Below, piece by piece: positions 4,279 through 27,734 of a stretch of 36,055 nucleotides of DNA. The first letter of the stretch is position 1; the number at the start of each line of letters is the position of its first letter. Under the pieces are notes generated by a model. That model did no database searches, had not been told where the DNA came from, and worked only from the letters and a program-made list of their open reading frames with translations. The translations under genes were made by a program, and so were the position numbers. This DNA is from a virus (lineage: Duplodnaviria; Caudoviricetes), in IMG/VR virus record IMGVR_UViG_3300020045_015080, positions 1-36,055 of that record, one strand, 5' to 3'.

Positions 4279-4635
4279 ATGAAGCCAATAGAAAAGAAAT
4301 CAGCGAACGATCATTTAATCCTGGCAATGCTACACAATAGCATTGCCAGGAACTTTTTGCAGTATGTAAGGCATGAGGTACACGGAGAAACTAAAGACTT
4401 CATAAACCGGCTGATTAAACGCAGCGAAGCCAACGAACTGGATACAATCTCCCGAATGACGAACGAAGCCAACCGGGAGAAATTTAAAAAAGAAATTCGT
4501 ATGGGCGATACTTTGCAAATTTCTTATATAAACATGCAAATATTAGAAATGGACCAACCAAAACGTGATTTGGTTGAAAAATTAATAAACTTAATTCACA
4601 AAGGCGAAGAAATTAACATCGAAACTACATTATGA
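4279..4635 (+). CDS. hypothetical protein
   Basis: ATGA overlap with the methylase. Confidence 0.65.
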   Translation: MKPIEKKSANDHLILAMLHNSIARNFLQYVRHEVHGETKDFINRLIKRSEANELDTISRMTNEANREKFKKEIRMGDTLQISYINMQILEMDQPKRDLVEKLINLIHKGEEINIETTL

Positions 4636-6275
4636 AAAAAGAAGAACCACTGTTTTTAATAGTTGATTTGTTTTGCGGTTTTGGTGGCACCAGTACCGGT
4701 TTTGCAAATGCAGAAATCAACGGCAATAAAATCTGCAAAGTAATTGCCTGCGTTAACCATGACCCGAAAGCAATCAAAAGCCATTGGTTGAATCATAGCG
4801 AGGTTAAGCACTTTGAAGAAGATATCCGGACACTTGATTTAACCGAGCTCACCAAAATTGTAAACTACTGGCGTGGCATATACCCAAATGCGTATGTGTT
4901 GTTATGGGCCAGCCTGGAATGCACCAATTTTAGCAAGGCAAAGGGAGGGCAGGCAAGGAACGCAGATAGCCGGACCTTAGCAGAACATTTGTTCCGGTAC
5001 CAGGAAGCTTTGCAGCCTGACTATATTCAAATCGAAAATGTGGTTGAATTTATGGCCTGGGGACCACTGGATGAAAAAGGCAAACCGATCAGTAAGAAAA
5101 ATGGCGAAGAATGGGTAAAATGGAAAAACCAAATGTGTGCGTATGGCTATTATGATGAATGGAAGGAATTGAACTCTGCCGATTTTGGAGCATACACCAG
5201 CAGGAACCGGTTATTTGGTTGTTTTGCAAAGGACGGCTTACCAATCGTATGGCCTGATAAAACGCATTACAAAACCATTGCCGTAAAAAGTAAAAAGGCG
5301 GTAACGCAGCAACAAAACATGTTCAATAAATCACTTTCACCATGGATGCCAGTTAAGGATGTATTGGATTTTAGTGATGAAGGAACCAGTATTTTTAACC
5401 GAAAAAAAAACCTAAGCGATAAGACATACGAACGCATTTATGCAGGCCTTTTAAAGTATGTGGCGAAAGGTGATACTTCTTTTATCAGTAAATACTATTC
5501 AGGTAGGCCAGCCGGAAAAGTAGGTAGCACAAGCCAGCCAGCCGGCACAATTACAACAGCAGGCACTCAAAGTTTAATACAGGCGCAGTTCATTGCTGCT
5601 CATTACAGCACTGGCGCCAATGTAACACCAGTAACAAGGCCATGCCCAACGATCAGCACGAAAGACAGGTTTCAGTTAATCAATCCAATGTTTTTTATAG
5701 ATAAGCATTATCGTGTTACTCAAAACCAAAGCGTTGATCAGCCGGCCGGTACCATTATGCCAAACGATAAACACCGGTTGATTGAAGCTACACCGTTTAT
5801 CATGCCGACTAATTTTAATAACTTGCCACGCAGCACAGAAGAACCGGCACCAACGCTCACAGCAAGCAGAAGGCATACATACATTGTAAATCCTTCGCAT
5901 GGCGGGCATTGCACCAGCACAGAAGCGCCATGCCCTGTAATTGTAGCCAGGCAGGATAAAGCGCCGTTGTATGTGGTGCAATGTGAAACCGGACCGGTAA
6001 CAATACCAGTGTATGATACAGACAGCGAGGTAATGATCCGGATTAAGAAATTTATGGTAGCGTTTAATCTGGTGGACGTAAAAATGCGGATGCTTAAGGT
6101 ATTGGAATTATTGAAAATACAAGGCTTTCCGGAAACGTATCAAATGATTGGCAACCAAACAGACCAGAAAAAGTTCATCGGCAACAGTGTGCACCCATTA
6201 GTACCTAAGCATTGGGCAGAAGCATTGGGCGGCCGGTTAATTAAATTAGGAAACAGAATTTCAAAAGCAGCTTAA
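4632..6275 (+). CDS. DNA (cytosine-5) methyltransferase, phage type with repeated P-x-P/G-T-I-T modules
   Basis: DLFCGFGG (motif I), ASLECTNFS (catalytic Cys), IENVVEF, SRNRLF, IQGFP...IGNSV. Confidence 0.93.
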   Translation: MKKEEPLFLIVDLFCGFGGTSTGFANAEINGNKICKVIACVNHDPKAIKSHWLNHSEVKHFEEDIRTLDLTELTKIVNYWRGIYPNAYVLLWASLECTNFSKAKGGQARNADSRTLAEHLFRYQEALQPDYIQIENVVEFMAWGPLDEKGKPISKKNGEEWVKWKNQMCAYGYYDEWKELNSADFGAYTSRNRLFGCFAKDGLPIVWPDKTHYKTIAVKSKKAVTQQQNMFNKSLSPWMPVKDVLDFSDEGTSIFNRKKNLSDKTYERIYAGLLKYVAKGDTSFISKYYSGRPAGKVGSTSQPAGTITTAGTQSLIQAQFIAAHYSTGANVTPVTRPCPTISTKDRFQLINPMFFIDKHYRVTQNQSVDQPAGTIMPNDKHRLIEATPFIMPTNFNNLPRSTEEPAPTLTASRRHTYIVNPSHGGHCTSTEAPCPVIVARQDKAPLYVVQCETGPVTIPVYDTDSEVMIRIKKFMVAFNLVDVKMRMLKVLELLKIQGFPETYQMIGNQTDQKKFIGNSVHPLVPKHWAEALGGRLIKLGNRISKAA

Positions 6276-6284
6276 AATTAAAGT

Positions 6285-7124
6285 ATGAAAGAGAAATTAA
6301 TTATAAGCTTTTCTGGTGGCCGCACCAGCGCTTACATGACATGGTGGCTTTTAAATTGCTGGCAGGATAGAGATAAATATGATATCATCGTGGTTTTTGC
6401 AAACACCGGTAAGGAAGTAGAAGGTACGTATTTTTTCATAGATGAATGTGCCCAGGAATGGGGTATTGATATTGTGTGGGTAGAAGCTGTTCCTATTTCA
6501 GCTAAAGGATGGAAAGTAAAGGCTAAGGTAGTTACCTATGAAACCGCTTCCAGGAAAGGTGAGCCATTTGAGGCAATGATTAAAAAATTAGGGATACCAT
6601 CTTCCAAAATACCATTTTGTTCACCACAATTAAAACGGCAGGCTGTTCGGGCTTATGCAAAGCAAATTGGATGGGTAAAATATTCGGTAGCTATTGGATA
6701 TCGTACTGATGAACCAAAACGGGTTAATAGGAAAAATAAAAGGCAGAAATTGATTTATCCCCTGGTAGATATAAATCCAAAAAGTAAAAAAGAAATTTCA
6801 GAGTGGTGGAGTAAGCAGCCGTTTAATTTGGATATTCATGTGGATGATGGTAATTGCGATAATTGCTGGAAAAAAAACGCAGCTTTATTATGCAGAAATA
6901 TGCAACGCAATCCGGCGTCTTTTACCTGGTGGGAAAGCATAGGGCTGCAGTATGGACAGCATAACCCAAGAGATATAAAACTAAAACCACCATATAATTT
7001 TTTTAGGGGTAATATGTCCGTTCAGGATATACGGGAATTAAGCTTAAAGCCACAATCTGAAATAAAACAACTAACCATGTTTGAACCATTGAGCAGCTGC
7101 GGTGAAAGTTGCGAAGCATGGTAA
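6285..7124 (+). CDS. PAPS reductase family (PP-loop) protein
   Basis: SFSGGRTS PP-loop, FANTGKE, FCSPQLK, IGYRTDE, NCDNCWKK, SCGESCE. Confidence 0.85.
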   Translation: MKEKLIISFSGGRTSAYMTWWLLNCWQDRDKYDIIVVFANTGKEVEGTYFFIDECAQEWGIDIVWVEAVPISAKGWKVKAKVVTYETASRKGEPFEAMIKKLGIPSSKIPFCSPQLKRQAVRAYAKQIGWVKYSVAIGYRTDEPKRVNRKNKRQKLIYPLVDINPKSKKEISEWWSKQPFNLDIHVDDGNCDNCWKKNAALLCRNMQRNPASFTWWESIGLQYGQHNPRDIKLKPPYNFFRGNMSVQDIRELSLKPQSEIKQLTMFEPLSSCGESCEAW

Positions 7125-7151
7125 TTTATCATTAAAAACAAAATAGTAGTT

Positions 7152-7484
7152 ATGCCAAAAATAGTAGAAAAGTTTGTGTACATAGAATTACCCGGAGCAG
7201 TGTATATCCTGCATACCCGGGAGCCTTTTGTAATTGGAAGGGTATGGCTGTATAAATCATTACCAGCCCTGCAGGAGCAACTTGAAAAGCTTCAGCCACT
7301 ATCCTATGCGCAGATGGAATTATACGCCATTGCGATAACGATGCGGGCAGTTTTGGGGGATCGTATGATTGCACACGCAGGAACAAAAGAAGAATTGCAG
7401 CGGATTATGAACGGAATGCTGGATTTCTATAAAGAAACAAGGTTGGAGAAAAGTATAAGGTGGCACGAGAAATTTAAAATCTGA
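7152..7484 (+). CDS. hypothetical protein
   Basis: Last gene of the plus-strand operon. Confidence 0.6.
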   Translation: MPKIVEKFVYIELPGAVYILHTREPFVIGRVWLYKSLPALQEQLEKLQPLSYAQMELYAIAITMRAVLGDRMIAHAGTKEELQRIMNGMLDFYKETRLEKSIRWHEKFKI

Positions 7485-7833
7485 TGCCAAAATTAAAAGC
7501 AATCAAATTTTTGCATAAACCGGTTTTGATGTTTACCTGGTTGCGGCGCCAGTTTTGATATTGCGTAACATGATCATAGTCATGCAGCATAATATTCGAT
7601 AACTGGCGCCGCAAAATATCCATTTCCACATCACTGATACCAATCACCTGCTGTACTTCAGTAAGCGGAACGCCGGTTACAATAGCGAGGTTGATAAAAA
7701 CTAAAATACCCAATTCCTTTTGAAAATATTCGTGCTCCCTGGCAACATTGGCAAGCATCCACTTGCCGGCACTTTTGTTATCCCAAACAAATTGAGGCCG
7801 AAGGCAAATGGATAGTTGTTTTGCTGTTAGCAT
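7474..7833 (-). CDS. hypothetical protein
   Basis: Convergent ORF. Confidence 0.55.
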   Translation of the reverse strand: MLTAKQLSICLRPQFVWDNKSAGKWMLANVAREHEYFQKELGILVFINLAIVTGVPLTEVQQVIGISDVEMDILRRQLSNIMLHDYDHVTQYQNWRRNQVNIKTGLCKNLIAFNFGIRF

Positions 7834-7869: not shown

Positions 7870-8106
7870 ATGCCCCGTCAACGAATCAATGAGCCGCGAT
7901 ACACACCCGAAATTGCCCACCGTTTTATGCTTACCCGTAAAACTGCCAATCTCACCATTAAAGAAATATCCGAAAAAATGGGTTTTAATACTTCCTATAT
8001 CAAAGCAGTTGAGTATGGCAATATTTCCCCTAACATTGATTTTCTAATAAAATGGCACAATACTTTTGATAAGTCTTATACCTGGATATTAGAAGGCAGG
8101 ATCTAA
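7870..8106 (+). CDS. XRE-family helix-turn-helix regulator
   Basis: LTIKEISEKMGFNTSYIKAVEYGNISP, HTH_3 pattern. Confidence 0.85.
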   Translation: MPRQRINEPRYTPEIAHRFMLTRKTANLTIKEISEKMGFNTSYIKAVEYGNISPNIDFLIKWHNTFDKSYTWILEGRI

Positions 8107-9680
8107 TCTTTGTGGTAAGCAACGATACAATCCGTATTCAGGAACGCAAGGGCTATACTTACCGCATTTTCAAGCGCTACCCTGGCCACTTTAGCACTAT
8201 CCACTACACCGGCAATACACAGGTCCTCAATCTCCCCTGTTTTGGCATTCAGGCCAATATTCATTTTACCCTCGCCTTTTTCTTTTATTTGCTTTAAAAC
8301 AAAATCAGAATTATAGCCGGAGTTTTCACAAAGCTGCAAGAAGATACTTTGCAGTGGCTTTTTAAGAATTTCAAGTGGTCCACCGGAAAGTAAATAATAC
8401 ACCCGGCCACCACCTGGAAGGTAACCTTCCTCAATAGCACTACGCACAGCCAATACTGCATCTTCAATACGATCCAATGTTTCCCGGCGCTCTACTTCGG
8501 TGGTACCACCGGCATAGATATACGCAATACCTCCCTGAAGCTTGCTGATACGTGCCTGCAGAAATTCCTTTTCCCATGGTCCGTTTTCCGGTTTCACCAG
8601 CGTATTAATTTGTGTAATCCGCTGATCAATCAGGTTGGTATCACCATGGCCGCCCAGGATCAATGCATCTTTCGCAGTAGCATTTAAAAAATCTGCAGAA
8701 CCCAGGATGCTTTCAATATCTGAAGGTGTAATATTATCAATATTCTTCCCTTCGTTTTCACTGAAAAAACTGGCGCCGGTATAAATGGCAATATCTTTCA
8801 GTACATCAACATAACCTTTGGTATAATTGGGGATTGTAACAGCACAAACCGGTAACTGGATATTGCGCCGGTTAAGGTTAAGCGAAGCAAGCGCCTGGCC
8901 TTCGATATTACCGCAGAAAATTATAAGTGGTTTTTTGGCATCAAACGCATATGTTACAATTTTAGCAATATCTTTTGTTTGGGTAATGTTTTTATCGGTA
9001 ACGAATATATACGGATCCATGTATTCGCAAATATCCTTGTTGTTTTTTTGACCATTGCTAAATAAACTGGATGCCCAGCCATGATCTATTTTCATTCCCG
9101 GGTAAGCTTCAACGTAACTTTCCGTTTTTTTACTTTCCTCCCACATCACTGTTCCGTTTGGTCCAATGGTATCGTAAGCCTGCTTAAACAGGTCGCCAAT
9201 AAATTCGTCATTGTTAGCAGATATGGTAGCTACCTGCTGCACCTTATTGATATCAAAAAGCGCAGCCGTTTTAATTGGGATGGCATTGTGTTTAATATCA
9301 GCAACGCATTGCTTTAATTCCTGCTGCAGCTGGTGTTTTAAATTTACCGCAGTGGCACCTTTGCTAAGATGCCAGTTAATCTCTTCCAGTAAATCTTCAC
9401 AAAGGATCGTCGCAGTAGTGGTGCCATCGCCGGCATCGTCCACTGTTTTCATGCTTGCCTGCCTGATCACCTGGATAGCAGCATTTACGAACGGATCTGC
9501 ACTTTCAATGCTACGGGCAACCGTTACACCATCTTTGGTAGTATAGGCCATTTCTCCCTGTTCCGATATCATCACATTTTTACCGTTTGGGCCCAATGTT
9601 ATTTTTACCGGTTCCGCCAGTTGCCTGGCAGCTTCTAAAAAATAATCCCTAGCCTTCTGGCCATATACTGTTTTCTTCAT
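8103..9680 (-). CDS. groEL: phage-encoded chaperonin GroEL (divergent Cpn60)
   Basis: ITLGPNGKNV, TTKDGVTVAR, AGDGTTTAT, VATISANND, IEEGYLPGGG, VVDSAKVARVALENAVS; no GGM tail. Confidence 0.96.
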   Translation of the reverse strand: MKKTVYGQKARDYFLEAARQLAEPVKITLGPNGKNVMISEQGEMAYTTKDGVTVARSIESADPFVNAAIQVIRQASMKTVDDAGDGTTTATILCEDLLEEINWHLSKGATAVNLKHQLQQELKQCVADIKHNAIPIKTAALFDINKVQQVATISANNDEFIGDLFKQAYDTIGPNGTVMWEESKKTESYVEAYPGMKIDHGWASSLFSNGQKNNKDICEYMDPYIFVTDKNITQTKDIAKIVTYAFDAKKPLIIFCGNIEGQALASLNLNRRNIQLPVCAVTIPNYTKGYVDVLKDIAIYTGASFFSENEGKNIDNITPSDIESILGSADFLNATAKDALILGGHGDTNLIDQRITQINTLVKPENGPWEKEFLQARISKLQGGIAYIYAGGTTEVERRETLDRIEDAVLAVRSAIEEGYLPGGGRVYYLLSGGPLEILKKPLQSIFLQLCENSGYNSDFVLKQIKEKGEGKMNIGLNAKTGEIEDLCIAGVVDSAKVARVALENAVSIALAFLNTDCIVAYHKD

Positions 9681-9934
9681 AAAATTAAATGGATTTGATT
9701 TTCAGTTAAAACGATACCTGGCTCTCCTTCCCAATCGGAAAACGGCAGGCCACAATCTCCCGGGTATATAATGATATCACCCTTTTTTACCGTCATTGGC
9801 GCTCCCTGGTGGCCCGGACCGGTAAATACCACTCTCGCCTGTTTATAATCGGTATTATCCAAAGCAAGACCGGAAGCGGATTTTTGTTCTTTAGGAATGG
9901 GAATCGCAAAAATTTTGTCAAATAAAGGTTGCAT
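9677..9934 (-). CDS. groES: co-chaperonin GroES (Cpn10)
   Basis: MQPLFDKI, mobile loop KSASGLAL, VVFTGPG, VKKGD; overlaps the groEL start. Confidence 0.9.
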   Translation of the reverse strand: MQPLFDKIFAIPIPKEQKSASGLALDNTDYKQARVVFTGPGHQGAPMTVKKGDIIIYPGDCGLPFSDWEGEPGIVLTENQIHLIL

Positions 9935-9965: not shown

Positions 9966-10394
9966 CTATTTTTTTTGTATGCTAATTTTTATAGCCTCCA
10001 AATCAAACTGCAGGTTTAGGTAATTGATAGCTGTATATCTGTACACTTTCCATCCTAATTGCTGTGCTGCATTGTACTTTTCAGTATCGCCGGTAAAGCC
10101 TGTTGGCGTAGTATGCCTGCTTTTTTGAGAAAAGATACCTTCGTATTCAAACGCAAGCAGGTGGTCATTAAAACTCCAATCAAATTTCCATTTCCTTTTT
10201 GGATGAAATTTATATTCTGTATCCAGCTGTAGTTTATTATCCCTGGCAAACTCAGCCAGTTTGAAGTTGAACCATTCTTTTTCCTTCGATGGCTTACTGA
10301 TGCGCTTTTTTTTTGGCTCCGCAAATAAATGCTCATTTAATTTTGCGCAGGGCCGGTTTTTTAAATCGTTTAAAGTGAATGGTGTTCCTTTCAT
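9966..10394 (-). CDS. PD-(D/E)XK endonuclease (Vsr/DUF559-like)
   Basis: EYKFHPKRKWKFDW...FEYEG...EKYNAAQQLGWKVYRYT. Confidence 0.75.
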   Translation of the reverse strand: MKGTPFTLNDLKNRPCAKLNEHLFAEPKKKRISKPSKEKEWFNFKLAEFARDNKLQLDTEYKFHPKRKWKFDWSFNDHLLAFEYEGIFSQKSRHTTPTGFTGDTEKYNAAQQLGWKVYRYTAINYLNLQFDLEAIKISIQKK

Positions 10395-10406: not shown

Positions 10407-10619
10407 TTAATCATACATCCAATCCGGCATATCCCTTTTAATAGCCAGCGGAGCAGCAATACACCTAATACGGCTTGCTGGAAATTCTTCTAAATCAATT
10501 GCTGGCATTTCGCAATAAGGCGAGTATTCAAGCCTGCCGGATCTTAATCTTTTGTATGCCGATTCCCTTTTTATACCGGCTAATTTTGCCCATGTTGTTA
10601 TTGTTACGAATCGTTGCAT
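10407..10619 (-). CDS. small HTH DNA-binding protein (start re-called at 10619)
   Basis: MQRFVTITTWAKLAGIKRESAYKRLRSGRL; the longer 10742 call reads across the cassette boundary. Confidence 0.6.
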   Translation of the reverse strand: MQRFVTITTWAKLAGIKRESAYKRLRSGRLEYSPYCEMPAIDLEEFPASRIRCIAAPLAIKRDMPDWMYD

Positions 10620-10795
10620 AGTTGTAAATTTAGTTACACCGTGTAGCCTTAATGTCGCATATTTACGAGTTAGCCGCCATCCTACAACCAAAATGCCGAA
10701 GAACAGCTTGGTATCTCTTTGTTTTTTTTCCTGTTGCCACAAATACAGAAAGGCAGAATACCTGCCATCGGAATTAACGAGGGCAGGTATTGTCT

Positions 10796-10951
10796 TTACA
10801 TAAATCCAAAAGCAATTGCAGCCGCTTCGCCAATGTCACAAAGGTCTCCGCCTTCATCATCTAGCAATTCATTACCATCATCGTCTAAGTAAAACTTTGC
10901 AATTTTCTGCTCTAACTCATCCCATTTTTTGGCTTTTTCTTCAATAGTCAT
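10796..10951 (-). CDS. cassette 0 gene, 51-aa acidic protein
   Basis: Hand translation MTIEEKAKKWDELEQKIAKFYLDDDGNELLDDEGGDLCDIGEAAAIAFGFM. Confidence 0.7.
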   Translation of the reverse strand: MTIEEKAKKWDELEQKIAKFYLDDDGNELLDDEGGDLCDIGEAAAIAFGFM

Positions 10952-11148
10952 AAAATTTATTTAAGGTTAAAAAATACAAATACATGCTCCGCAGCTTAAA
11001 AAAAACAAAGAAATAATCTGTTTATATCTTCGCATTTTGGTTGTAGACGCAATGTAAAACCGTTCCTACGTCACTCCTTTTTACAAATGCTGATGGCGGC
11101 TAACGGCCCCGAAAACTCAGGAAAGCTAACACTCATAGCCCGGACGGC

Positions 11149-11264
11149 GGCTAACACACAAATTGCCGACAATGCGCCGGTTCCTTCGACCGCAGTACAC
11201 CACTTACTTTATTTCGTGCCTCAATAAAACGTGGCGCACTGCGGCAATTTCGGGGCCGTTAGTT
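11149..11264 (+). repeat. attC-like site 1
   Basis: GGCTAAC..AAATTGCCGaCAATGCGCC / GGCGCACTGCGGCAATTT..GTTAGTT. Confidence 0.8.
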
Positions 11265-11265
11265 T

Positions 11266-12021
11266 CTATTTTTTTTTCCCTTGCCACACATTCGGCTCCG
11301 TATCACCATCGGTTCTAACATTAAACATTCCTATATCCGTTTCTCTATTAAATCTGTTTAAAGCTGCATTGTAATAGTTGGTATCAATTTCGCAGCCTAC
11401 AAAATCAAACCCTAATTTCTCAGCAACAATAGCAGATGATCCGCTACCTAAATGAGTATCTAATACTTTAAACCCATCATTACAATAGCGTTTGAATAAC
11501 CAAGCATATAAGGCAACAGGTTTTTGTGTTGGGTGTATTTTAGTTTCTTTATTCGCTCCTCCTGTATTTGAATAAGAAAATAATGCTGCAGGCTTATCAA
11601 ATGAAGTCCAAGCCATTTCCCATTGTGAAAAGTTTTCCCAGGGTTGGCGTTTATCCCAACAAACAATACATCTTGTAGGTGGTAATGGAAAGTAATTTCC
11701 GCCCCAAATTATTTGATGCTTACTAACTCTAAATAATTGCTCAAAGTATTCAGGTGTAGGCTTTTCAAAATCCCAATCACAAGACATTGTATTTAATGCT
11801 CTATTTTTTAACTTACCAGAACCGCCATTTAATCTTCCTTTTTTTATTTTCACAGCAGTGCTTTCATCTCTAACCCAACCATCTTTACGGTTAAGATTTT
11901 GCCCCATTGACATATTAGGCGCATTGATGCCATAAGGCGGATCCACAATAGCAATATCAAAATGCTTATCAGGTACAGTTTTCATGTACTCTATGCAATC
12001 AATATTTAGTAATTCAGTCAT
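11266..12021 (-). CDS. cassette 1 gene, beta-class N6-adenine/N4-cytosine DNA methyltransferase
   Basis: IVDPPYG, IIWGGNYF, IHPTQKP, LDTHLGSGS, GCEID. Confidence 0.93.
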   Translation of the reverse strand: MTELLNIDCIEYMKTVPDKHFDIAIVDPPYGINAPNMSMGQNLNRKDGWVRDESTAVKIKKGRLNGGSGKLKNRALNTMSCDWDFEKPTPEYFEQLFRVSKHQIIWGGNYFPLPPTRCIVCWDKRQPWENFSQWEMAWTSFDKPAALFSYSNTGGANKETKIHPTQKPVALYAWLFKRYCNDGFKVLDTHLGSGSSAIVAEKLGFDFVGCEIDTNYYNAALNRFNRETDIGMFNVRTDGDTEPNVWQGKKK

Positions 12022-12069
12022 TCTTTAAAATTTATAGTTTAAAGTGCTCCGCGGCTAAAAAAAAACAAA

Positions 12070-12195
12070 AACTAACAAAGGCATTTATGCAAGTTGGCAT
12101 GACAGCGAACTTTGAGCATTTACTAAAGCCTGGCATTTATTGTTTGTGATCGGAAGTACAAAGCCTCCAACCTGCATAAATGCCCAGCGTAATAT
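12070..12195 (+). repeat. attC-like site 2
   Basis: AACTAAC..GGCATTTATGCAAGTTGG / CCAACCTGCATAAATGCC..GTAATAT. Confidence 0.8.
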
Positions 12196-12251
12196 GCAAT
12201 GCCAGCCAACGCCACACATTCGTACTTCGTGGCGGCTGGATGTTCCGACAA

Positions 12252-12677
12252 TCAACTTGTCAGCAACAATTGCGTATCCCCCTGAATGTATTTGTACATC
12301 GTTTCACCAGTTTTTGTAACAGCATACGGCAAAAAAACCTCTGCCATATCTGCAAGTTGTGCTTCTACAATTGCCATTTGTGCCTCAACCCAATCTTTTA
12401 CAATTCTCCAGGCAACTCTTTGCGCCTGTTCCGGTGTACATTTTGAATTAGGCACTTTCTTATCGTTTTTCATTGCCTTTAATACGCCTGAATAATTAGC
12501 CGGTAAAATATAACCAACCATTCTGTCATTTATCATCAGGCAAAAAGTTACAGCAGACGGTGATCCGTTTTCATAATCAGTAACAATTTTATTTGCGCCA
12601 TGTGACACTAAGCATTTTTGTATTTCACTGATTGACTTTTCACAAGCAATCATTGTAGTGTAATTAAGTATAGCCAT
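12252..12677 (-). CDS. cassette 2 gene, phage-type hypothetical protein
   Basis: ILNYTT, QAQRVAWRIVKDWVEAQMA, EVFLPY. Confidence 0.8.
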   Translation of the reverse strand: MAILNYTTMIACEKSISEIQKCLVSHGANKIVTDYENGSPSAVTFCLMINDRMVGYILPANYSGVLKAMKNDKKVPNSKCTPEQAQRVAWRIVKDWVEAQMAIVEAQLADMAEVFLPYAVTKTGETMYKYIQGDTQLLLTS

Positions 12678-12733
12678 CTTTTTTATTTTATTTAATTATT
12701 ACGGTTTTTAAATTCACCGCCCAATGGCACTGC

Positions 12734-12821
12734 ATATTACAAGCGGTTTTGCGTCAGCCTGGAATCAGTATTTAGTTTGTTAGTGTTTTCGGGGCCGAAC
12801 GCAAAGCCGAAAACGTTACCT
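12734..12821 (+). repeat. attC-like site 3
   Basis: ATATTAC..CGGTTTTGCGTCAGCC / GGCCGAACGCAAAGCCG..GTTACCT. Confidence 0.8.
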
Positions 12822-12834
12822 GCCATGCGCCAAG

Positions 12835-13083
12835 CTAAAGGAACTCGGATTGAATGTATAGCAACATATCATCTGCACATCTATCGGTATCAGGCAAGCC
12901 ATTTACCGTCAACCGCCACCTATATCTAAGCCCACGAATGGTATTGTAGCTTTCGTGCAATTCCTCATCTTCAATCCAAAAATGGCTATGCCTTTCATCA
13001 CGCCAAAGCACGGCAGGTAACAAACGGCTTTGTGCTATACTGGCATCAGTAGTTTCTTGGTCTTGATTTTCGCTATTCAGCAT
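12835..13083 (-). CDS. cassette 3 gene, hypothetical; start lies inside attC4
   Basis: ATG at 13083 (MLNSENQDQ...); the alternative start at 13131 is also inside attC4. Confidence 0.55.
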   Translation of the reverse strand: MLNSENQDQETTDASIAQSRLLPAVLWRDERHSHFWIEDEELHESYNTIRGLRYRWRLTVNGLPDTDRCADDMLLYIQSEFL

Positions 13084-13149
13084 AAGTTTATATTTTGAGC
13101 ATTTAGTTAATAAATTCCAGTACAGACACAAAGCCGCCGAACGTTAGCC
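13015..13149 (+). repeat. attC-like site 4
   Basis: AGGTAAC..CGGCTTTGTGCTATACTGG / CCAGTACAGACACAAAGCCG..GTTAGCC. Confidence 0.8.
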
Positions 13150-13410
13150 GCCATCCTCCCCCATCACATTCAACCGGCTTTCAATCTTTAATTCCACCCA
13201 ATAATCGCAATCCATTTTTAAAATAGCCATCATGTGTTTTACCCTAAATGCCACACTTATCCGGTTTAATGCTTTTTCACGCCGCTTACAATTTCGCTCA
13301 AATACCAGGTTAGGATCATCGCCAGGTTGAAATAGTTCATTATCCGGAAGGTATATCACCTCTGATGTAATATAAACGCCCTTTAAATATAATTTCAACT
13401 TACCCTTCAT
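13144..13410 (-). CDS. hypothetical protein; its stop codon lies in the array's right boundary
   Basis: Overlaps the upstream gene; TAA lies within GGCGGCTAAC. Confidence 0.65.
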   Translation of the reverse strand: MKGKLKLYLKGVYITSEVIYLPDNELFQPGDDPNLVFERNCKRREKALNRISVAFRVKHMMAILKMDCDYWVELKIESRLNVMGEDGG

Positions 13411-14164
13411 TGGTATTCTTTACGATTCCCAAAGCTGGAGCATAGCCAAATTCGTGAGTAATTTCTGGCTGAAAGATTTGTTTTTTCGCCTCAGCTTCAT
13501 TTGAAATATTTTTATGCGCAGTCAGCCGGCTCCTTATCTGCTCAATTCCTGCCGCCATTTTTTCGGCACCTTGCATCATCTTCGCATCTTCCGGATGCAT
13601 GTTATCCAATAGTTTATTAGTGCTACCTAAGCTATCCAGCTGCTTTATAGGCTCCTCATGCGCTTTTTTTGCAGCGGCTTTCCTTCGGATCCAATATTCA
13701 TCCAGCATGGCCGTTATTACAGTAATATCAATGCGGTCCATAATTTTCACCAGGTCGCCACGTTTGGCCAGGCTAAACATCATTACATAATCTTCCAGCC
13801 TGAAATTATCACATTCATCCAGCAACATGGATGCCGCTTCAATCATCTGGTCGTCGTTCATATTCCGGACCACATTCACCGAATTGCAAAAATCTTTGAT
13901 CAGCAGTAGTAATAATTTCAGCATCACATTTGGGCCACGTTCTTTTGCAAGGTCTTTAATCATCGGGTATTTAATAATTTCTAAAAAGGCTGGTTTGCCT
14001 GCAGGCATCAAATCCCTGCTTACTGTAATCATTTCCATCTTGCCCTGCATCCGCTGGTTAGGATCCTCCATTTGCAGCAGTGAGGATATCAATTTTGTCG
14101 AAAGCTGTTCGGGTATCGATGTTACCGCCAGTTGGTTGTTTGTTGAAGTTTGATCCTGGTGCAT
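13400..14164 (-). CDS. putative replication accessory protein / helicase loader
   Basis: Directly downstream of the initiator; inferred from position. Confidence 0.45.
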   Translation of the reverse strand: MHQDQTSTNNQLAVTSIPEQLSTKLISSLLQMEDPNQRMQGKMEMITVSRDLMPAGKPAFLEIIKYPMIKDLAKERGPNVMLKLLLLLIKDFCNSVNVVRNMNDDQMIEAASMLLDECDNFRLEDYVMMFSLAKRGDLVKIMDRIDITVITAMLDEYWIRRKAAAKKAHEEPIKQLDSLGSTNKLLDNMHPEDAKMMQGAEKMAAGIEQIRSRLTAHKNISNEAEAKKQIFQPEITHEFGYAPALGIVKNTNEG

Positions 14165-15136: not shown

Positions 15137-17875
15137 TTACTGGTTTGGTTGTTTAGAAAAAATACCAATCAATTGGTCCACCATATTCTTTTCCACGGTT
15201 TCAATATCGTCGTGTGCACCCGTTACCTGGTTTACAATCACCCGCTTTTTCTCAATAATATCATAGATATATTCATCAATGGTGTTTAATCCTAAAAAGT
15301 AACTACACTGCACACTATCCTTCTGGCCTATACGATGACAACGATCCTCGCACTGCTCTGCATCTGCAGGGTGCCATGGAAGCTCAATAAAGGCCACCCT
15401 GCTGGAAGCGGTCAACGTAATACCTACTCCACCACTCTTGATATTGCAAAGTATAACCTGCACCTTCGGATCATTCTGAAAACTGTCCACTGCTCTCTGC
15501 CGGTTATCCATACTGTCATCACCTACAATCGTAACGGATCCCGGGATGGCTTTTTTAAGGTCAAATACAATCTCCTTATGCCAGGCGAACACCACGATTT
15601 TTTCGCCCGATTCCACCACCTCCTGTATATGCGCAATTACCTCCTCTACCTTTCCCCTTGCAGCAATCTTTTTCAGGATCCCAATTTTTACCATCACCTC
15701 ACCCCGCAAACTTTTGGTAATTTCTTCGTCCGATTTTAACAGGTTTTCCTTCAGGAAATTTTTAAGGTCATTCTCTGCCTTATTGTATTCCGTCCTGGTC
15801 GTAATATCGCAGCTAAGTATTTCACGCATTTTATCCGGCAGGTCTTTAAGTACTTCCGTTTTCTCCCTCCTGTAAAAACAGTTTTGATGTAATAGATAAT
15901 TCAGTTCCTTTAGGTTGCTGGCTTGGTTGTATCCCTGGCAATACCGGTCGATAAAACCTTTGTAGTTACCAAATTTATCCAGCTGTTGAATAATATGAAG
16001 CTGCGGTATAAGATCCACCGGCTTATTCACCACTGGCGTGCCCGTTAGCGCCAGCACATACTCCTTCCCTTTTGCAATCCCCATACATAATTTACTTTGC
16101 ATGGTCTTACCATCTTTCGTACGATGTACTTCATCAATGATGATGCAATCGAAAAGGTCAATCGTTTCCCTGAACTTGATGTGATTCAACCGAAGCGGTA
16201 CCGGTTTACCATCCTTGCCCATTGGCTTTTCAATGCTTTCCACAAAATACTTTTTCAAGCTTTCGTAATTCACTATAAAATACTTGATCATACCTACCTT
16301 ATAGAAAGTATGCCACGTTTTCAATACCCGGTCGCTAAGTATCAGCGCTTTCCTGCTCGTCCATTTATCTTCAATCTCCCGCTTCCAGTTCTCCCGAATG
16401 GTGGCCGGGCAAATGATCAGTACGCATTTACATTTTGCACCCTCTGCAGTAGCAATGGCTTGGCCGGTATTATGAGTAACAATAAAACTATCAGTTAAGT
16501 AAAGATGATCTTGCGCAGCAACCTTTATACACTGCGTTGGCATTATTCCAATTGGCTCTATTGAGCTTATATATCTTGATGCGTGGTTTGTTTTTTTACT
16601 AACTCCCCAATGATCAACTTTCCTTTGCATATAAAACGGACACTCATTAATCCTGATATTAACCTGCCACTCAATACTTTTACCTTGGTGTGTTCTATTA
16701 TACTCCCTTAATATAGCTTGCCCTCCCAATGAAAACACAAGGTCTGAAATAGATTTTGCTAAAGATTCTGAGCATGTATGAAATGTAATACGATTCATCT
16801 TCGCACTTCCGTCAGTATCCATCAAACCCCTTAGTAGATCAAGCCTCTGTTGTTTTGAAGCAAATAAATACTCTTCCGGAATAAACTTTACTTTACCTTT
16901 TACATTAATTCCCAACCTTTCAATTTCCGCAGTAAATGGATTTTTATTTGTTGTTTTAGTTTGAGTGATATAATACTGTGGGCAATCTGTGTACTTATTT
17001 AGCCAAAGTTTAAGGTTGACAGGTAAAAGGGATTCAATTATATTTTTTGTTTCAATTTCAAAATCAGGGATTGAAATACAAATATCCTTACCGCAAATGC
17101 TACCATCGCCTAATAATGCACCTAAAATATAAGGATGGATAACAAAATCCCTGTCAGGCAAATCAAATGCTTTTAATACCGGTATCTCCCACTTTAAAAC
17201 AGGTTTCCTTCCGGTAGATTGCCTGGCGATATTATCACGATACTGCAACCCTGCATCCAGCAACTCTTTTGTTGACTTTACAATCCATCCTGTATTCCTT
17301 CTACGTCTATTCACATCCCTTACACGCCATAAATGCTCAATATCACATTCAGTTGAAGTACCATCATTGAAAGTTATTTTATAAACTGGTCTATCTCCCT
17401 GCGGAAACACGCCTTCAATTTGATATAGGTTACCATCTGCCCCAATAATAGGAGTGCCCTTTTTTGCATCGCCCATTTTAATCCATCCTTTTGGCGTTGC
17501 TATTTTAGCAGTTAATGGTTGTGCCTTCCCTAATCCGGGCTGATCCCCGACAATTACCCGTTTGTATTTAAGCGCATACGCCACACCATTAGCCTGGTAA
17601 GGAAACAATTGCATTTTCAAAGGGATATCAATTTCCAAATCCGGCAATGGATCGATTTCACCAATTTGAGTAAGCGTAGCGTTTTTAGCACTCACTCCCA
17701 ATCCTGCAGCCCAATTCAATAAAGCCGTTCCGCTTGAAGATGGCACATGCCAGTATTTTTTACCACCGCTTTGTCTGAACCCGGCACCCGGTATTTTTTT
17801 AATGGCGCTCACCAGCCATGGCTTGTATGCAAATTGTACTTCAAACCCATTCGGTGTTTCTAAAATATCTAACAT
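15137..17875 (-). CDS. SNF2-family helicase with N-terminal HARP-like domain, interrupted by an intein
   Basis: LFPYQ, DQPGLGK|T, IICPA, IIDEVH, LTGTP, GVGITLT, QCEDRCHRIGQ. Confidence 0.93.
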   Translation of the reverse strand: MLDILETPNGFEVQFAYKPWLVSAIKKIPGAGFRQSGGKKYWHVPSSSGTALLNWAAGLGVSAKNATLTQIGEIDPLPDLEIDIPLKMQLFPYQANGVAYALKYKRVIVGDQPGLGKAQPLTAKIATPKGWIKMGDAKKGTPIIGADGNLYQIEGVFPQGDRPVYKITFNDGTSTECDIEHLWRVRDVNRRRRNTGWIVKSTKELLDAGLQYRDNIARQSTGRKPVLKWEIPVLKAFDLPDRDFVIHPYILGALLGDGSICGKDICISIPDFEIETKNIIESLLPVNLKLWLNKYTDCPQYYITQTKTTNKNPFTAEIERLGINVKGKVKFIPEEYLFASKQQRLDLLRGLMDTDGSAKMNRITFHTCSESLAKSISDLVFSLGGQAILREYNRTHQGKSIEWQVNIRINECPFYMQRKVDHWGVSKKTNHASRYISSIEPIGIMPTQCIKVAAQDHLYLTDSFIVTHNTGQAIATAEGAKCKCVLIICPATIRENWKREIEDKWTSRKALILSDRVLKTWHTFYKVGMIKYFIVNYESLKKYFVESIEKPMGKDGKPVPLRLNHIKFRETIDLFDCIIIDEVHRTKDGKTMQSKLCMGIAKGKEYVLALTGTPVVNKPVDLIPQLHIIQQLDKFGNYKGFIDRYCQGYNQASNLKELNYLLHQNCFYRREKTEVLKDLPDKMREILSCDITTRTEYNKAENDLKNFLKENLLKSDEEITKSLRGEVMVKIGILKKIAARGKVEEVIAHIQEVVESGEKIVVFAWHKEIVFDLKKAIPGSVTIVGDDSMDNRQRAVDSFQNDPKVQVILCNIKSGGVGITLTASSRVAFIELPWHPADAEQCEDRCHRIGQKDSVQCSYFLGLNTIDEYIYDIIEKKRVIVNQVTGAHDDIETVEKNMVDQLIGIFSKQPNQ
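16469..17524 (-). mobile_element. intein (352 aa) with LAGLIDADG homing endonuclease, class-3 signature
   Basis: Starts AQPL, ends VTHN/T; LGALLGDGS and LRGLMDTDGS motifs; EHLW, TQCI, THN. Confidence 0.92.
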
Positions 17876-23882: not shown

Positions 23883-23956
23883 TGGAGAGTGAAAGACTCG
23901 AACTTCCGCCCCGTTATTAACTGTAACGTTGCTCTAACCAACTGAGCTAACTCCCC
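23883..23956 (-). tRNA. atypical tRNA: Ala-type acceptor stem, GTT (Asn) anticodon, A33
   Basis: GGGGAGT TA GCTC AGTTGGTTA GAGC AA CGTTA CAGTTAA TAACG GGGC GGAAG TTCGAGT CTTTC ACTCTCC A. Confidence 0.8.
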
Positions 23957-26400: not shown

Positions 26401-26648
26401 TGTTTATCAAAATGTTTAAACAACCATTCGTAAATTCCTCTGAAACCGTTATTGGTATTCGCTTTTGTGCAAATAGGGGATATTCCTTTCGTGGGCACTA
26501 CCAGCTATTTTACAAAAGCCGCTCTCGTAGCGGCTTTTGCTTTGTAGGTAAGGGTTTCGGCTGATTTTCATTTCCCCAATCCGCCCTAAAAAACCCTATT
26601 TTTTCCCTCAATTGTTTAATAAAATGTTGAAACAAGATGTTTAAACAA
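26389..26648 (+). other. putative attP: tRNA 3-prime core flanked by arm-type repeats
   Basis: Core ATTCCTTTCGTGGGCA at 26482-26497; ATGTTTAAACAA-like repeats on both sides. Confidence 0.6.
26513..26539. terminator. bidirectional intrinsic terminator
   Basis: CAAAAGCCGCT-CTCGT-AGCGGCTTTTG. Confidence 0.75.
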
Positions 26649-27734
26649 AATATAAAGGCTGTTTTAAACAGCCAGCGGCCAGACAGTAAAGGTAATTTCC
26701 CGCTTCGCATACGGGTAACCATCCAGCGCCAGGTTACTTACTACCCTACCGGCATCATGCTGAAGGAAGATCAGTTAAAAGACGGTATCATTATCAATCA
26801 TCCAAACAAGGCCCTGCTCAATACCGAATTGCGCCGTAAAATATCGCAACTGGAAAAGGATCACCTGGAATCTGCCATTACCGGCGAAAATGTTGCCCGG
26901 GTAAAAAAGAACATGGACCTGAAATTTACCGAGTATGCGGAGAAGAAAATAAAACAATGGAAGGGCACCCAGGCAAAAAGTACCATCAAGCATAAAAACA
27001 GTTACCTGGCAAAACTCAATGCTTTTAATCCAAGGCTGAAATTAAAGGATATGGATAAGGACATGCTCACCAGTTTTGAAGATTACTGCAGGGGTTTAGG
27101 AAATGTGTCCAATACGGTTTGGAGTGCGAGCAAGTTTGTTAAATCAATATTAAATGCAGCTGTAGAAGATGGTATCATGGCCAGGTCGCCGGCAAAAGGA
27201 TTTAAGGGAGCAAAGTATTCAGATCCATTGCGGCAAGGTTTAAGCGAAGAAGAAATACAGCTGATAGAAACCTTTGCAGATAATCCGCTCAATAGCCAGA
27301 AATTGCGAAATGTAGCCAACTGGTTCCTGTTTGGTTGTTATACCGGGTTGCGGTATGGAGATATGCACCGGTTTAAAGGTTTTGTAAATGGGAAGATCAT
27401 ACTTGCTACAGAAAAGACCGGGGAGCCGGTTAGTATTTTTGCCACCGAAAAAATCAAACAGGCTTATAGCCGGATTGACAAAGGAGTGTACACCAACCAG
27501 AAGATGAATGATTATTTAAAAATCATTGCAGCAGGGGTAGGAATTGACCGAAATGTAACCTGCCATCTGGCCAGGCATACATTTGCCATAAATTTTTTGG
27601 ACCGTGGAGGAGATATCTATATCCTGTCTAAAATATTGGGCCATACAAATTTAAAAACCACTTCTATATACGGCAAGGTCAGTAATAAACTTGCCGATGC
27701 AGAAATGGCCCGGGTTTGGGATTGTGCCGGCTAA
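26637..27734 (+). CDS. int: tyrosine integrase, Bacteroidota type (Arm DNA-binding, SAM-like and catalytic domains)
   Basis: FPLRIRVT..YYPTGI; CYTGLRYGD, EKTG, HLARHTFA, LGHTNLKTTSIY. Confidence 0.95.
   Translation: MFKQNIKAVLNSQRPDSKGNFPLRIRVTIQRQVTYYPTGIMLKEDQLKDGIIINHPNKALLNTELRRKISQLEKDHLESAITGENVARVKKNMDLKFTEYAEKKIKQWKGTQAKSTIKHKNSYLAKLNAFNPRLKLKDMDKDMLTSFEDYCRGLGNVSNTVWSASKFVKSILNAAVEDGIMARSPAKGFKGAKYSDPLRQGLSEEEIQLIETFADNPLNSQKLRNVANWFLFGCYTGLRYGDMHRFKGFVNGKIILATEKTGEPVSIFATEKIKQAYSRIDKGVYTNQKMNDYLKIIAAGVGIDRNVTCHLARHTFAINFLDRGGDIYILSKILGHTNLKTTSIYGKVSNKLADAEMARVWDCAG

What the first reader, a model, noticed from the sequence alone, without database searches (positions are those of the whole stretch)
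10669..13157. Phage-borne integron-like cassette array with inverted genes and no IntI
Seen: four 88-135 bp imperfect hairpins with AAC...GTT ends. Each cassette's left end is complementary to the start of its own downstream hairpin: GTTAGCCGCCATCC (10669)/GGACGGCGGCTAAC (11142), 13/14; GTTAGTTTCTATTTTTTTTT (11258)/AAAAAAAAACAAAAACTAAC (12057), 18/20; GTAATATGCAATGCCA (12189)/TGGCACTGCATATTAC (12725), 15/16; GTTACCTGCCATGC (12815)/GCACGGCAGGTAAC (13008), 13/14. Each unit holds one ORF. Nearly all mismatches are A.C on the plus strand and G.T on the minus strand, so the minus strand folds better. Established: this is the signature of integron cassettes, which recombine as folded bottom strands at G|TT. 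All four ORFs are antisense to the attC top strand but co-oriented with the phage operon, and they look like phage genes. Inference: a phage gene-shuffling system that borrows a host IntI in trans, placed just downstream of the replication genes.
Basis: partly seen in the sequence, partly recalled or inferred. Interest (0 to 1): 0.92.

Follow-up and report, generated by a model that had tools for sequence, protein, structure and literature searches.

The report
Swappable gene cassettes in a phage
This phage carries four small genes in a row, each bounded by matching ends and a DNA hairpin as in bacterial integrons but with the genes turned round; a close relative holds different genes and a short recombinase at the same spot, so the units are likely swapped by that enzyme rather than by the classical integron integrase.

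Summary
Observation confirmed: four hairpin-bounded single-gene units, genes antisense, far above chance. They belong to a widespread cassette system of Bacteroidota phages and hosts. Of 251 related cassettes, 244 are inverted. Near-identical phages switch sequence exactly at G|TT. A colinear complete relative holds different cassettes in the same slot plus its own recombinase. That enzyme is Xer-sized and lacks IntI's I2 insertion. The hairpins lack attC's extrahelical G and have an uneven spacer and a fixed outer G·T wobble. In host genomes this hairpin type sits beside the short enzyme, while canonical attC sits beside IntI. So 'borrowed IntI' is probably wrong, though IntI exists in 50 of 151 sampled genomes. 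This contig (63% complete) has no such enzyme, and its left junction does not score as attI. Prior art: phage CALINs (PMC9892861) and rAID-1 host arrays (10.1101/471110). The scan noted this system before in at least 70 other genomes. No recombination is shown. Verdict: new variant of a known kind.

The parts
10669..10671 (+). Left array boundary, G|TT. No hairpin to its left; does not score as the attI-like site of relatives, so possibly a secondary insertion site or a decayed attI
   Evidence: rank 116 of 2500 GT[TA] sites, score -2.9 against 5.0-15.9 leave-one-out
10670..11258 (+). Cassette 1 (top-strand sense), with roughly 60-bp inverted ends interrupted by a 45-nt insert
10796..10951 (-). 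Cassette 1 gene, 51 aa, no family; three homologues at 57-98% identity
11092..11114 (+). Perfect 23-nt reverse-complement copy of the cassette 1 circle junction (hairpin right arm plus own left end); unexplained
11149..11264 (+). Hairpin site 1, spacer 4 against 7 nt, crossover inferred at G11258|TT
11259..12189 (+). Cassette 2
11266..12021 (-). Orphan N6/N4 DNA methyltransferase, 251 aa (PF01555, phrog_67)
12070..12195 (+). Hairpin site 2, crossover inferred at G12189|TA
12190..12815 (+). Cassette 3 (GTA/TAC core variant)
12252..12677 (-). Cassette 3 gene, 141 aa, common phage protein of unknown function (phrog_17260)
12734..12821 (+). Hairpin site 3, crossover inferred at G12815|TT; its arm pattern matches 102 viral loci
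12816..13143 (+). Cassette 4
12835..13083 (-). Cassette 4 gene, 82 aa if it starts at the ATG inside the hairpin (start inferred); no family
13015..13149 (+). Hairpin site 4, spacer 3 against 6 nt, crossover inferred at G13143|TT
13144..13410 (-). Native 88-aa early gene whose stop codon is the TTA of the last G|TTA; its homologue in L270 bounds a different array in the same way
10407..10619 (-). 70-aa ORF, no Pfam match, standing where relatives L270/L271 carry the recombinase
9966..10394 (-). Left flanking gene (phrog_503); its 60% homologue follows the recombinase in L270/L271

Best explanation
The region is an array of four single-gene cassettes in the early operon of a likely temperate Bacteroidota phage, likely inserted and excised at G|TT by a short Xer-like recombinase that relatives and hosts encode but this contig does not. 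Shown by sequence: each cassette runs from TT to G, carries its hairpin in front of the gene, and has ends that pair over about 14 bp with one fixed G·T wobble at +10. The array fills the slot between a native gene's stop codon and the position of the recombinase in a colinear relative. Inferred: the minus strand folds when single-stranded, for example during replication. The enzyme would bind the inner stem and the outer arm and exchange one strand at G|T with a double-stranded attI-like site, another hairpin or a plain GTT, and replication would resolve the junction, as in integrons. The uneven spacer and the wobble would replace attC's extrahelical bases in choosing the strand. Because the genes are inverted, insertion at a stop codon (TAA-C on the coding strand) puts the new gene in line with the early transcript without breaking the upstream gene. 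The cargo, such as an orphan methyltransferase, would then be expressed early, likely against host restriction. This phage would have to borrow the enzyme from the host chromosome or a co-resident phage, or has lost it (about even odds that the array still moves).
For: Polarity: in 64 distinct copies of one hairpin the 10 nt outside AAC are 92-100% conserved, while +4 to +6 after GTTA fall to 33-47%. Own-end match of 9/11 or better is upstream in 66 of 87 sites and downstream in 0 of 87 (GTWA itself was fixed by the pattern). Family traits in 251 cassettes out of 410 hairpins: 244 antisense, 5 sense, 2 without ORF; minus strand folds better in 242; A/G at +10 in 237; spacer 2-4 nt longer on the right in 234. 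Precise exchange: L266, L267 and L269 share 105 of 107 columns up to GATGTTA and are then unrelated; 9 cassettes recur at 89-98% identity between different neighbours (13 pairs). Enzyme link: hairpins lie on the 5' side of the recombinase in 56 of 73 phage loci and on the 3' side in 10. L270/L271 are colinear with the window (11 segments, 66-82%; G157 100% complete) and have different cassettes and the recombinase in this slot. The enzyme is about 41 aa shorter than VchIntIA across residues 185-247 and below the TIGR02249 cut-off (116.7 and 207.6 against 265). Hosts: 51 of 151 genomes carry it. Beside it, 25 of 25 well-paired cassettes have the +10 wobble and 0 of 45 hairpin calls fit the canonical model; beside IntI, 1 of 6 have the wobble and 6 of 25 calls are canonical.
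Against: No recombination was observed; everything is comparative. No such recombinase is on this contig, and the left junction does not score as attI. Cassette 3 folds slightly better on the plus strand. Canonical IntI is common in the same phylum sample (50 of 151), so it cannot be excluded as a helper. My loose family model also labelled 19 calls near IntI as family-type, so only the wobble and the canonical model discriminate. None of the window's own four cassettes was found whole in another context. The 251 cassettes are not independent, as many share one hairpin family, and the folding bias is partly due to the fixed wobble itself.
Confidence: 0.72

Rival explanations
1. One reading: the sites are ordinary attC and a canonical host IntI acts on them in trans (a phage CALIN).
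For: AAC...GTT cores, own-end complementarity and bottom-strand bias are integron traits. IntI above cut-off is in 50 of 151 sampled genomes. IntI1 recombined 5 of 6 phage attC sites in PMC9892861.
Against: The canonical extra C in the left arm is present in 2 of 251 sites. Sites beside IntI are canonical while this type sits beside the short enzyme. Phage arrays adjoin the short enzyme. The one tested site of this shape, P12002L attC1, was the failure, although only its 7-nt boxes were cloned.
Confidence: 0.12
2. Relic: the array was built by the short recombinase in an ancestor, the enzyme gene was replaced by the 70-aa ORF, the attI decayed, and the cassettes no longer move. This shares the origin of the best explanation and differs only on present activity.
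For: The relative has the enzyme in this slot. The left junction is not attI-like. Cassette 1 shows a rearranged right end.
Against: All four end pairs and stems are intact with the +10 wobble. Only 1 of 76 hairpin-bearing viral loci showed a recombinase motif within the fetched DNA (regex only), so enzyme-less arrays are the common state. One third of sampled host-phylum genomes could supply the enzyme. About 37% of this genome is missing.
Confidence: 0.25
3. The hairpins are RNA elements (terminators or processing sites) and genes are shuffled by the phage's RecT-type homologous recombination between them.
For: The window encodes RecT and an exonuclease, and the hairpins precede the genes on the transcribed strand.
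Against: The four hairpins share little sequence. Boundaries fall at one base. Each cassette's ends pair only in the circle form. Terminator-like and promoter-like counts equal shuffles. No Rfam family matches. There is a fixed link to a tyrosine recombinase and its upstream site.
Confidence: 0.05

Closest known systems
Phage CALINs (Qi et al. 2023, PMC9892861; main text parts 1-4 of 7 and supplement part 1 of 2 read), especially Polaribacter phage P12002L
   Same: Cassette arrays without integrase in phage genomes, carrying orphan DNA methyltransferases. P12002L attC1 (NC_028924 about 30005-30059) has the same 3/6 spacer, no extra base and antisense methylase genes.
   Different: That paper treats them as rare attC sites for IntI (17 CALINs in 10,705 phages) and does not describe the inversion, the site type or the short enzyme. 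attC1 was the one site IntI1 did not integrate, and it lacks the +10 wobble.
rAID-1 clusters of Bacteroidales (Ross et al., 10.1101/471110; abstract and passages read, supplements closed)
   Same: XerD-like recombinase followed by co-directional genes with repeated intergenic sequences described as reminiscent of integrons. The host loci here have that layout: enzyme, attI-like G|TT downstream, then 21 forward, 3 inverted and 1 ORF-less cassette of 25.
   Different: rAID-1 is chromosomal with immunity genes, and no hairpin or crossover was defined in the passages seen. Phage arrays lie on the enzyme's 5' side with inverted genes. Identity to the B. fragilis enzyme was not tested.
Classical integrons (IntI, attI, attC; passages of PMC4792948, PMC4889954, PMC8138268, PMC8618304)
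   Same: G|TT crossover, hairpin site belonging to the cassette on its left, own-end pairing, bottom-strand bias, attI just upstream of the enzyme gene, Phage_int_SAM_4 plus Phage_integrase domains.
   Different: No I2 insertion, no extrahelical G, uneven spacer, longer outer arm with fixed wobble, and genes inverted in phage arrays.
attG secondary sites (Loot et al., 10.1101/2022.09.11.507474; passages read)
   Same: Cassettes inserted at short GWT sites outside an integron; fits both array boundaries here.
   Different: Shown for IntI1-3 in E. coli. Here the right boundary is specifically a stop codon, and the enzyme is probably different.
CTXphi integration by XerCD (as discussed in PMC4792948; passage read)
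   Same: A folded single strand without extrahelical bases recombined by an enzyme without I2.
   Different: CTXphi integrates a whole phage at dif with host XerCD; here there is a dedicated enzyme and many single-gene cassettes.

Membership tests
Classical integron | intI gene on the element | tested here: not met
   The only tyrosine recombinase on the contig is the arm-binding lysogeny integrase 26637-27734, 48.7 bits against the 265 cut-off; the contig is 63% complete.
Classical integron | Associated enzyme has the I2 insertion | tested here: not met
   L154 and L231 enzymes are about 41 aa shorter than 2a3v in that stretch and below the TIGR02249 cut-off.
Classical integron | attI next to the first cassette | tested here: inconclusive
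   Present upstream of the enzyme in relatives. The window's junction shares TCG-N11-GTT with 7 of 11 training sites but ranks 116 of 2500.
attC site | AAC...GTT cores around an imperfect hairpin, cassette ends complementary in the circle | tested here: met
   4 of 4; cassette 3 uses the GTA/TAC variant.
attC site | Extrahelical G in the L'' arm | tested here: not met
   0 of 4 in the window; 2 of 251 in relatives. Cassette 1 has one extra base in the left arm, and cassettes 3 and 4 have one in the right arm.
attC site | Bottom strand folds better | tested here: met
   3 of 4 in the window; 242 of 251 in relatives.
attC site | Gene co-oriented with the top strand, site downstream of the gene | tested here: not met
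   0 of 4; 5 of 251 in phage loci.
attC site | Recombined as a single strand by IntI | not testable with these tools
   Needs an assay; a similar site failed with IntI1 in PMC9892861.
CALIN | Cluster of attC called by IntegronFinder or HattCI, no intI nearby | not testable with these tools
   Neither program nor an attC model is available; no Rfam match in the region. The no-intI half is met.
rAID-1 | 5' XerD-like recombinase more than 44% identical to BF9343_RS08045 | not tested
   That protein was not among the fetched sequences; the window lacks any such enzyme.
rAID-1 | Two or more co-directional genes downstream of the recombinase | tested here: not met
   Not met for the window or the phage loci, where arrays lie upstream; met in host loci.
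Bacteroidota short-recombinase cassette system (defined here) | Right spacer longer than left, and A/C mismatch at +10 of the end pair | tested here: met
   +10 mismatch in 4 of 4; spacer asymmetry 3, 1, 2 and 3 nt.

The most novel reading that the evidence does not exclude
Bacteroidota phages run a cassette factory: a Xer-sized recombinase without I2 works on folded single strands without extrahelical bases, resident phage genes are turned into cassettes by gaining a hairpin in front and using the stop codon as the crossover, and the cassettes pass between phages and host chromosomes. This would be a living intermediate between XerCD/CTXphi recombination and integrons, and a place to watch cassette birth. 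Supporting hints: close homologues of two cargo genes are plain genes (0 of 70 and 1 of 42 in cassette form), 53 of 244 genes stop on the TTA of their own GTTA, inverted cassettes occur in host arrays, and cassette 1 carries a perfect copy of its own circle junction.
Probability: 0.35. Interest if true: 0.88.

Novelty: new variant of a known kind. Interest (0 to 1): 0.68.

Why it matters
The I2 insertion is described as essential for integron function (PMC8138268), and extrahelical bases as the key to strand choice; the same paper says no reliable model of cassette genesis exists and speculates on a viral origin of integrons (PMC4792948). A second cassette system that lacks both features, spans about a third of sampled Bacteroidota genomes and many of their phages, and draws cargo from ordinary phage genes would make both questions testable. 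It would also explain the variable early regions and methylase rows of these phages. Cultured carriers exist: Polaribacter phage Leef_1 has the enzyme, an attI-like site and five short inverted units after its primase region. This window itself is an enzyme-less member; its special value is the syntenic relative that has the enzyme.

Tried and rejected
No close strain of this phage was found: gene 13400-14164 gave no viral loci, gene 13144-13410 no metagenome loci and only itself in the protein search, and no sequencing run was listed, so excision could not be read from reads. A 16-nt cassette-end pattern gave 42 loci, nearly all coding-sequence chance matches; only L096 is a real junction. 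A cassette 1 gene pattern found nothing in viral contigs; a 98% identical protein exists on a 3.3-kb contig whose context could not be fetched. The metagenome scan with the left flanking gene was not analysed further. Rfam gave only a tRNA and one weak chance hit outside the region. Promoter and terminator scans equal shuffles. An attI matrix for the left junction gave rank 43-143 of 2500 with noisy site picks and 116 of 2500 with corrected picks: rejected as support. The translation of the 70-aa ORF was out of frame, so that search is void; the in-frame Pfam scan was empty. The Atlas search for the cassette 3 protein returned only unnamed clusters. The model of the L154 enzyme (5-sequence alignment, pLDDT 77.5, catalytic end poorly modelled) matched XerA first and VchIntIA next, adding little. 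The lysogeny integrase 26637-27734 was rejected as the cassette enzyme: it is an arm-binding type, 13 kb away, and weak against the family. Seven of the 80 loci (near contig edges or duplicate) were left out. Literature searches for a description of this site type found none, but the library lacks most subscription papers, and the rAID-1 motif figure is in a closed supplement.
Full report
Context. The window is a whole 36,055-base virus record, linear and about 63% complete. It holds RecT, exonuclease, SNF2 helicase and replication-initiator genes on the minus strand, then the array, a phrog_503 gene and GroES/GroEL; elsewhere an arm-binding integrase beside an endolysin, and a tRNA. A Bacteroidota host is inferred: the hairpin pattern hit 10 Bacteroidota records among 12 genome loci.

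Observation. All quoted strings and match counts are correct, and the four hairpins measure 116, 126, 88 and 135 bp. Four chained units occur in the window against one unit in 40 shuffles. The five end mismatches are all A·C on the plus strand, and every cassette has one at +10 from the G. The minus strand folds better for three of four circle forms. The last G|TTA is the stop codon of the native gene 13144-13410.

A widespread family. A pattern from site 3 matched 102 viral loci with 94 distinct contexts. In 76 distinct loci of 2 kb or more, the ORF left of the site was antisense in 74; the right one was antisense in 64, sense in 3 and absent in 9. Polarity is fixed by conservation: in 64 copies of the commonest hairpin the ten bases outside AAC are 92-100% conserved and the bases after GTTA drop to 33-47%; the own-end match is upstream in 66 of 87 sites and never downstream. 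Pooling these loci with 73 of the 80 recombinase loci gave 410 hairpins, 251 with a matching own end: 244 antisense genes, 242 folding better on the bottom strand, 237 with the A/G pair at +10, 234 with a right spacer 2-4 nt longer, 173 without any bulge, 58 with an extra T in the R'-side arm and 2 with the canonical extra C. These counts are not independent, since hairpin families repeat.

Mobility. Three phage contigs are identical in 105 of 107 columns through the enzyme's start and up to GATGTTA, then unrelated; L262 and L263 behave alike. Nine cassettes recur at 89-98% identity between different neighbours. Records G156 and G157 are colinear with the window across the early region. In L270 the same flanking genes (60%, 31% and 28% identical) enclose a different set of cassettes, the right boundary is again the flanking gene's stop codon, and a 293-aa recombinase stands where the window has a 70-aa ORF. 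None of the window's own cassettes was found whole elsewhere.

The enzyme. A lead from earlier scan notes pointed to a short recombinase, which I tested. The L154 and L231 proteins have Phage_int_SAM_4 and Phage_integrase domains, stay under the integron-integrase cut-off and skip about 41 residues of VchIntIA where the I2 insertion lies (placing I2 there is from my knowledge of that structure). In 73 phage loci hairpins lie on its 5' side in 56 and on its 3' side in 10, behind a conserved G|TT some 37-53 nt before the start codon. That is the intI-attI layout with the genes turned round. It is found in 51 of 151 sampled genomes of the phylum, where the attI-like site follows the gene and cassettes are mostly forward. 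Canonical IntI is as frequent, 50 of 151, so I compared neighbourhoods: in 16 short-enzyme loci, 25 of 25 well-paired cassettes carry the +10 wobble and none of 45 hairpin calls is canonical; in 20 IntI loci, 1 of 6 carries it and 6 of 25 calls are canonical. The looser family model did not discriminate. The window has no such enzyme, and its left junction does not score as attI.

Mechanism. Shown: unit boundaries, polarity, inversion, exchange at G|TT in relatives, linkage to the short enzyme. Inferred: single-strand folding, one strand exchange with replicative resolution, the role of the uneven spacer and wobble, expression from the early operon, supply of the enzyme in trans, and an anti-restriction role of the methylase. 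Close homologues of the cassette 3 gene and the methylase are nearly all plain phage genes (0 of 70 and 1 of 42 in cassette form by a strict test; L004 is a cassette by eye, with other ends), which suggests that cassettes are made from resident genes.

Known work. Qi et al. (PMC9892861; main text parts 1-4 of 7, supplement part 1 of 2) reported 17 phage CALINs. Their P12002L attC1 has this site shape between antisense methylase genes and was the one of six that IntI1 did not integrate. Ross et al. (10.1101/471110; passages) described XerD-like recombinases heading gene arrays with integron-like repeats in Bacteroidales; the host layout matches, identity is untested and their motif figure could not be seen. 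Loot et al. (10.1101/2022.09.11.507474; passages) showed insertion at GWT sites. Escudero et al. (PMC4792948; passages) give the roles of I2 and extrahelical bases and the CTXphi analogy. PMC8138268, PMC4889954 and PMC8618304 were seen as passages. Ten searches found no description of this site type or of inverted phage cassettes, within a library that lacks most subscription papers. The scan itself holds 73 unchecked notes of this kind from at least 70 genomes.

Verdict. Real feature; works like an integron cassette array; not a member of the classical IntI/attC family on three tested features. New variant of a known kind, interest 0.68.

Noticed in passing
window 11092-11114 and 10669-10730 against 10990-11104: Cassette 1 has a second, perfect copy of its circle junction in reverse and about 60-bp inverted ends with a 45-nt insert; an inner AAC...GTT pair (about 10685 and 11041) brackets the gene itself. 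Possibly a trace of cassette formation or a failed recombination.
   Followed up: partly
window 13143-13160 against L270 (flipped) 7616-7630: The native gene's 3' end has six extra bases relative to its L270 homologue, making it identical to cassette 1's left end over about 15 nt. The direction of copying is unknown.
   Followed up: partly
window 10985-11009 and 12045-12069; L154, L261, L266, L272: A shared leader motif (TGCTCCGC..GCT..A-run) lies between hairpin and start codon in unrelated cassettes.
   Followed up: partly
G005 contigs C14, C27, C32, C33, C39, C41, C43, C47, C61; L252: About 30 copies of the last roughly 43 codons of the recombinase, in L252 each followed by the attI-like site and a new gene, instead of normal hairpins.
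   Followed up: partly
L418 (MT732473) 4995-7831; L419 (MT732435) 5231-6792: Cultured phage Leef_1 carries the enzyme, an attI-like site and five short inverted units; Ingeline_1 carries the enzyme and an attI-like site, with cassettes less clear.
   Followed up: partly
L236 46-369: Sequence that looks like the 3' end of a group II intron (recalled motif, not tested) lies just left of a family hairpin.
   Followed up: no
window 8103-9934: Phage-encoded GroEL and GroES directly downstream of the array.
   Followed up: no
window 15137-17875: SNF2 helicase with a LAGLIDADG-containing insert, likely an intein.
   Followed up: no
window 4632-7124: C5 cytosine methylase next to a PAPS-reductase-family gene on the plus strand, a possible second DNA-modification module.
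   Followed up: no
window 23883-23956: tRNA gene with an unusual anticodon arm in the early region.
   Followed up: no
L507-L526: Canonical integron integrases above cut-off in 50 of 151 sampled Bacteroidota-phylum genomes, with canonical attC nearby in several; some genomes hold both systems.
   Followed up: partly
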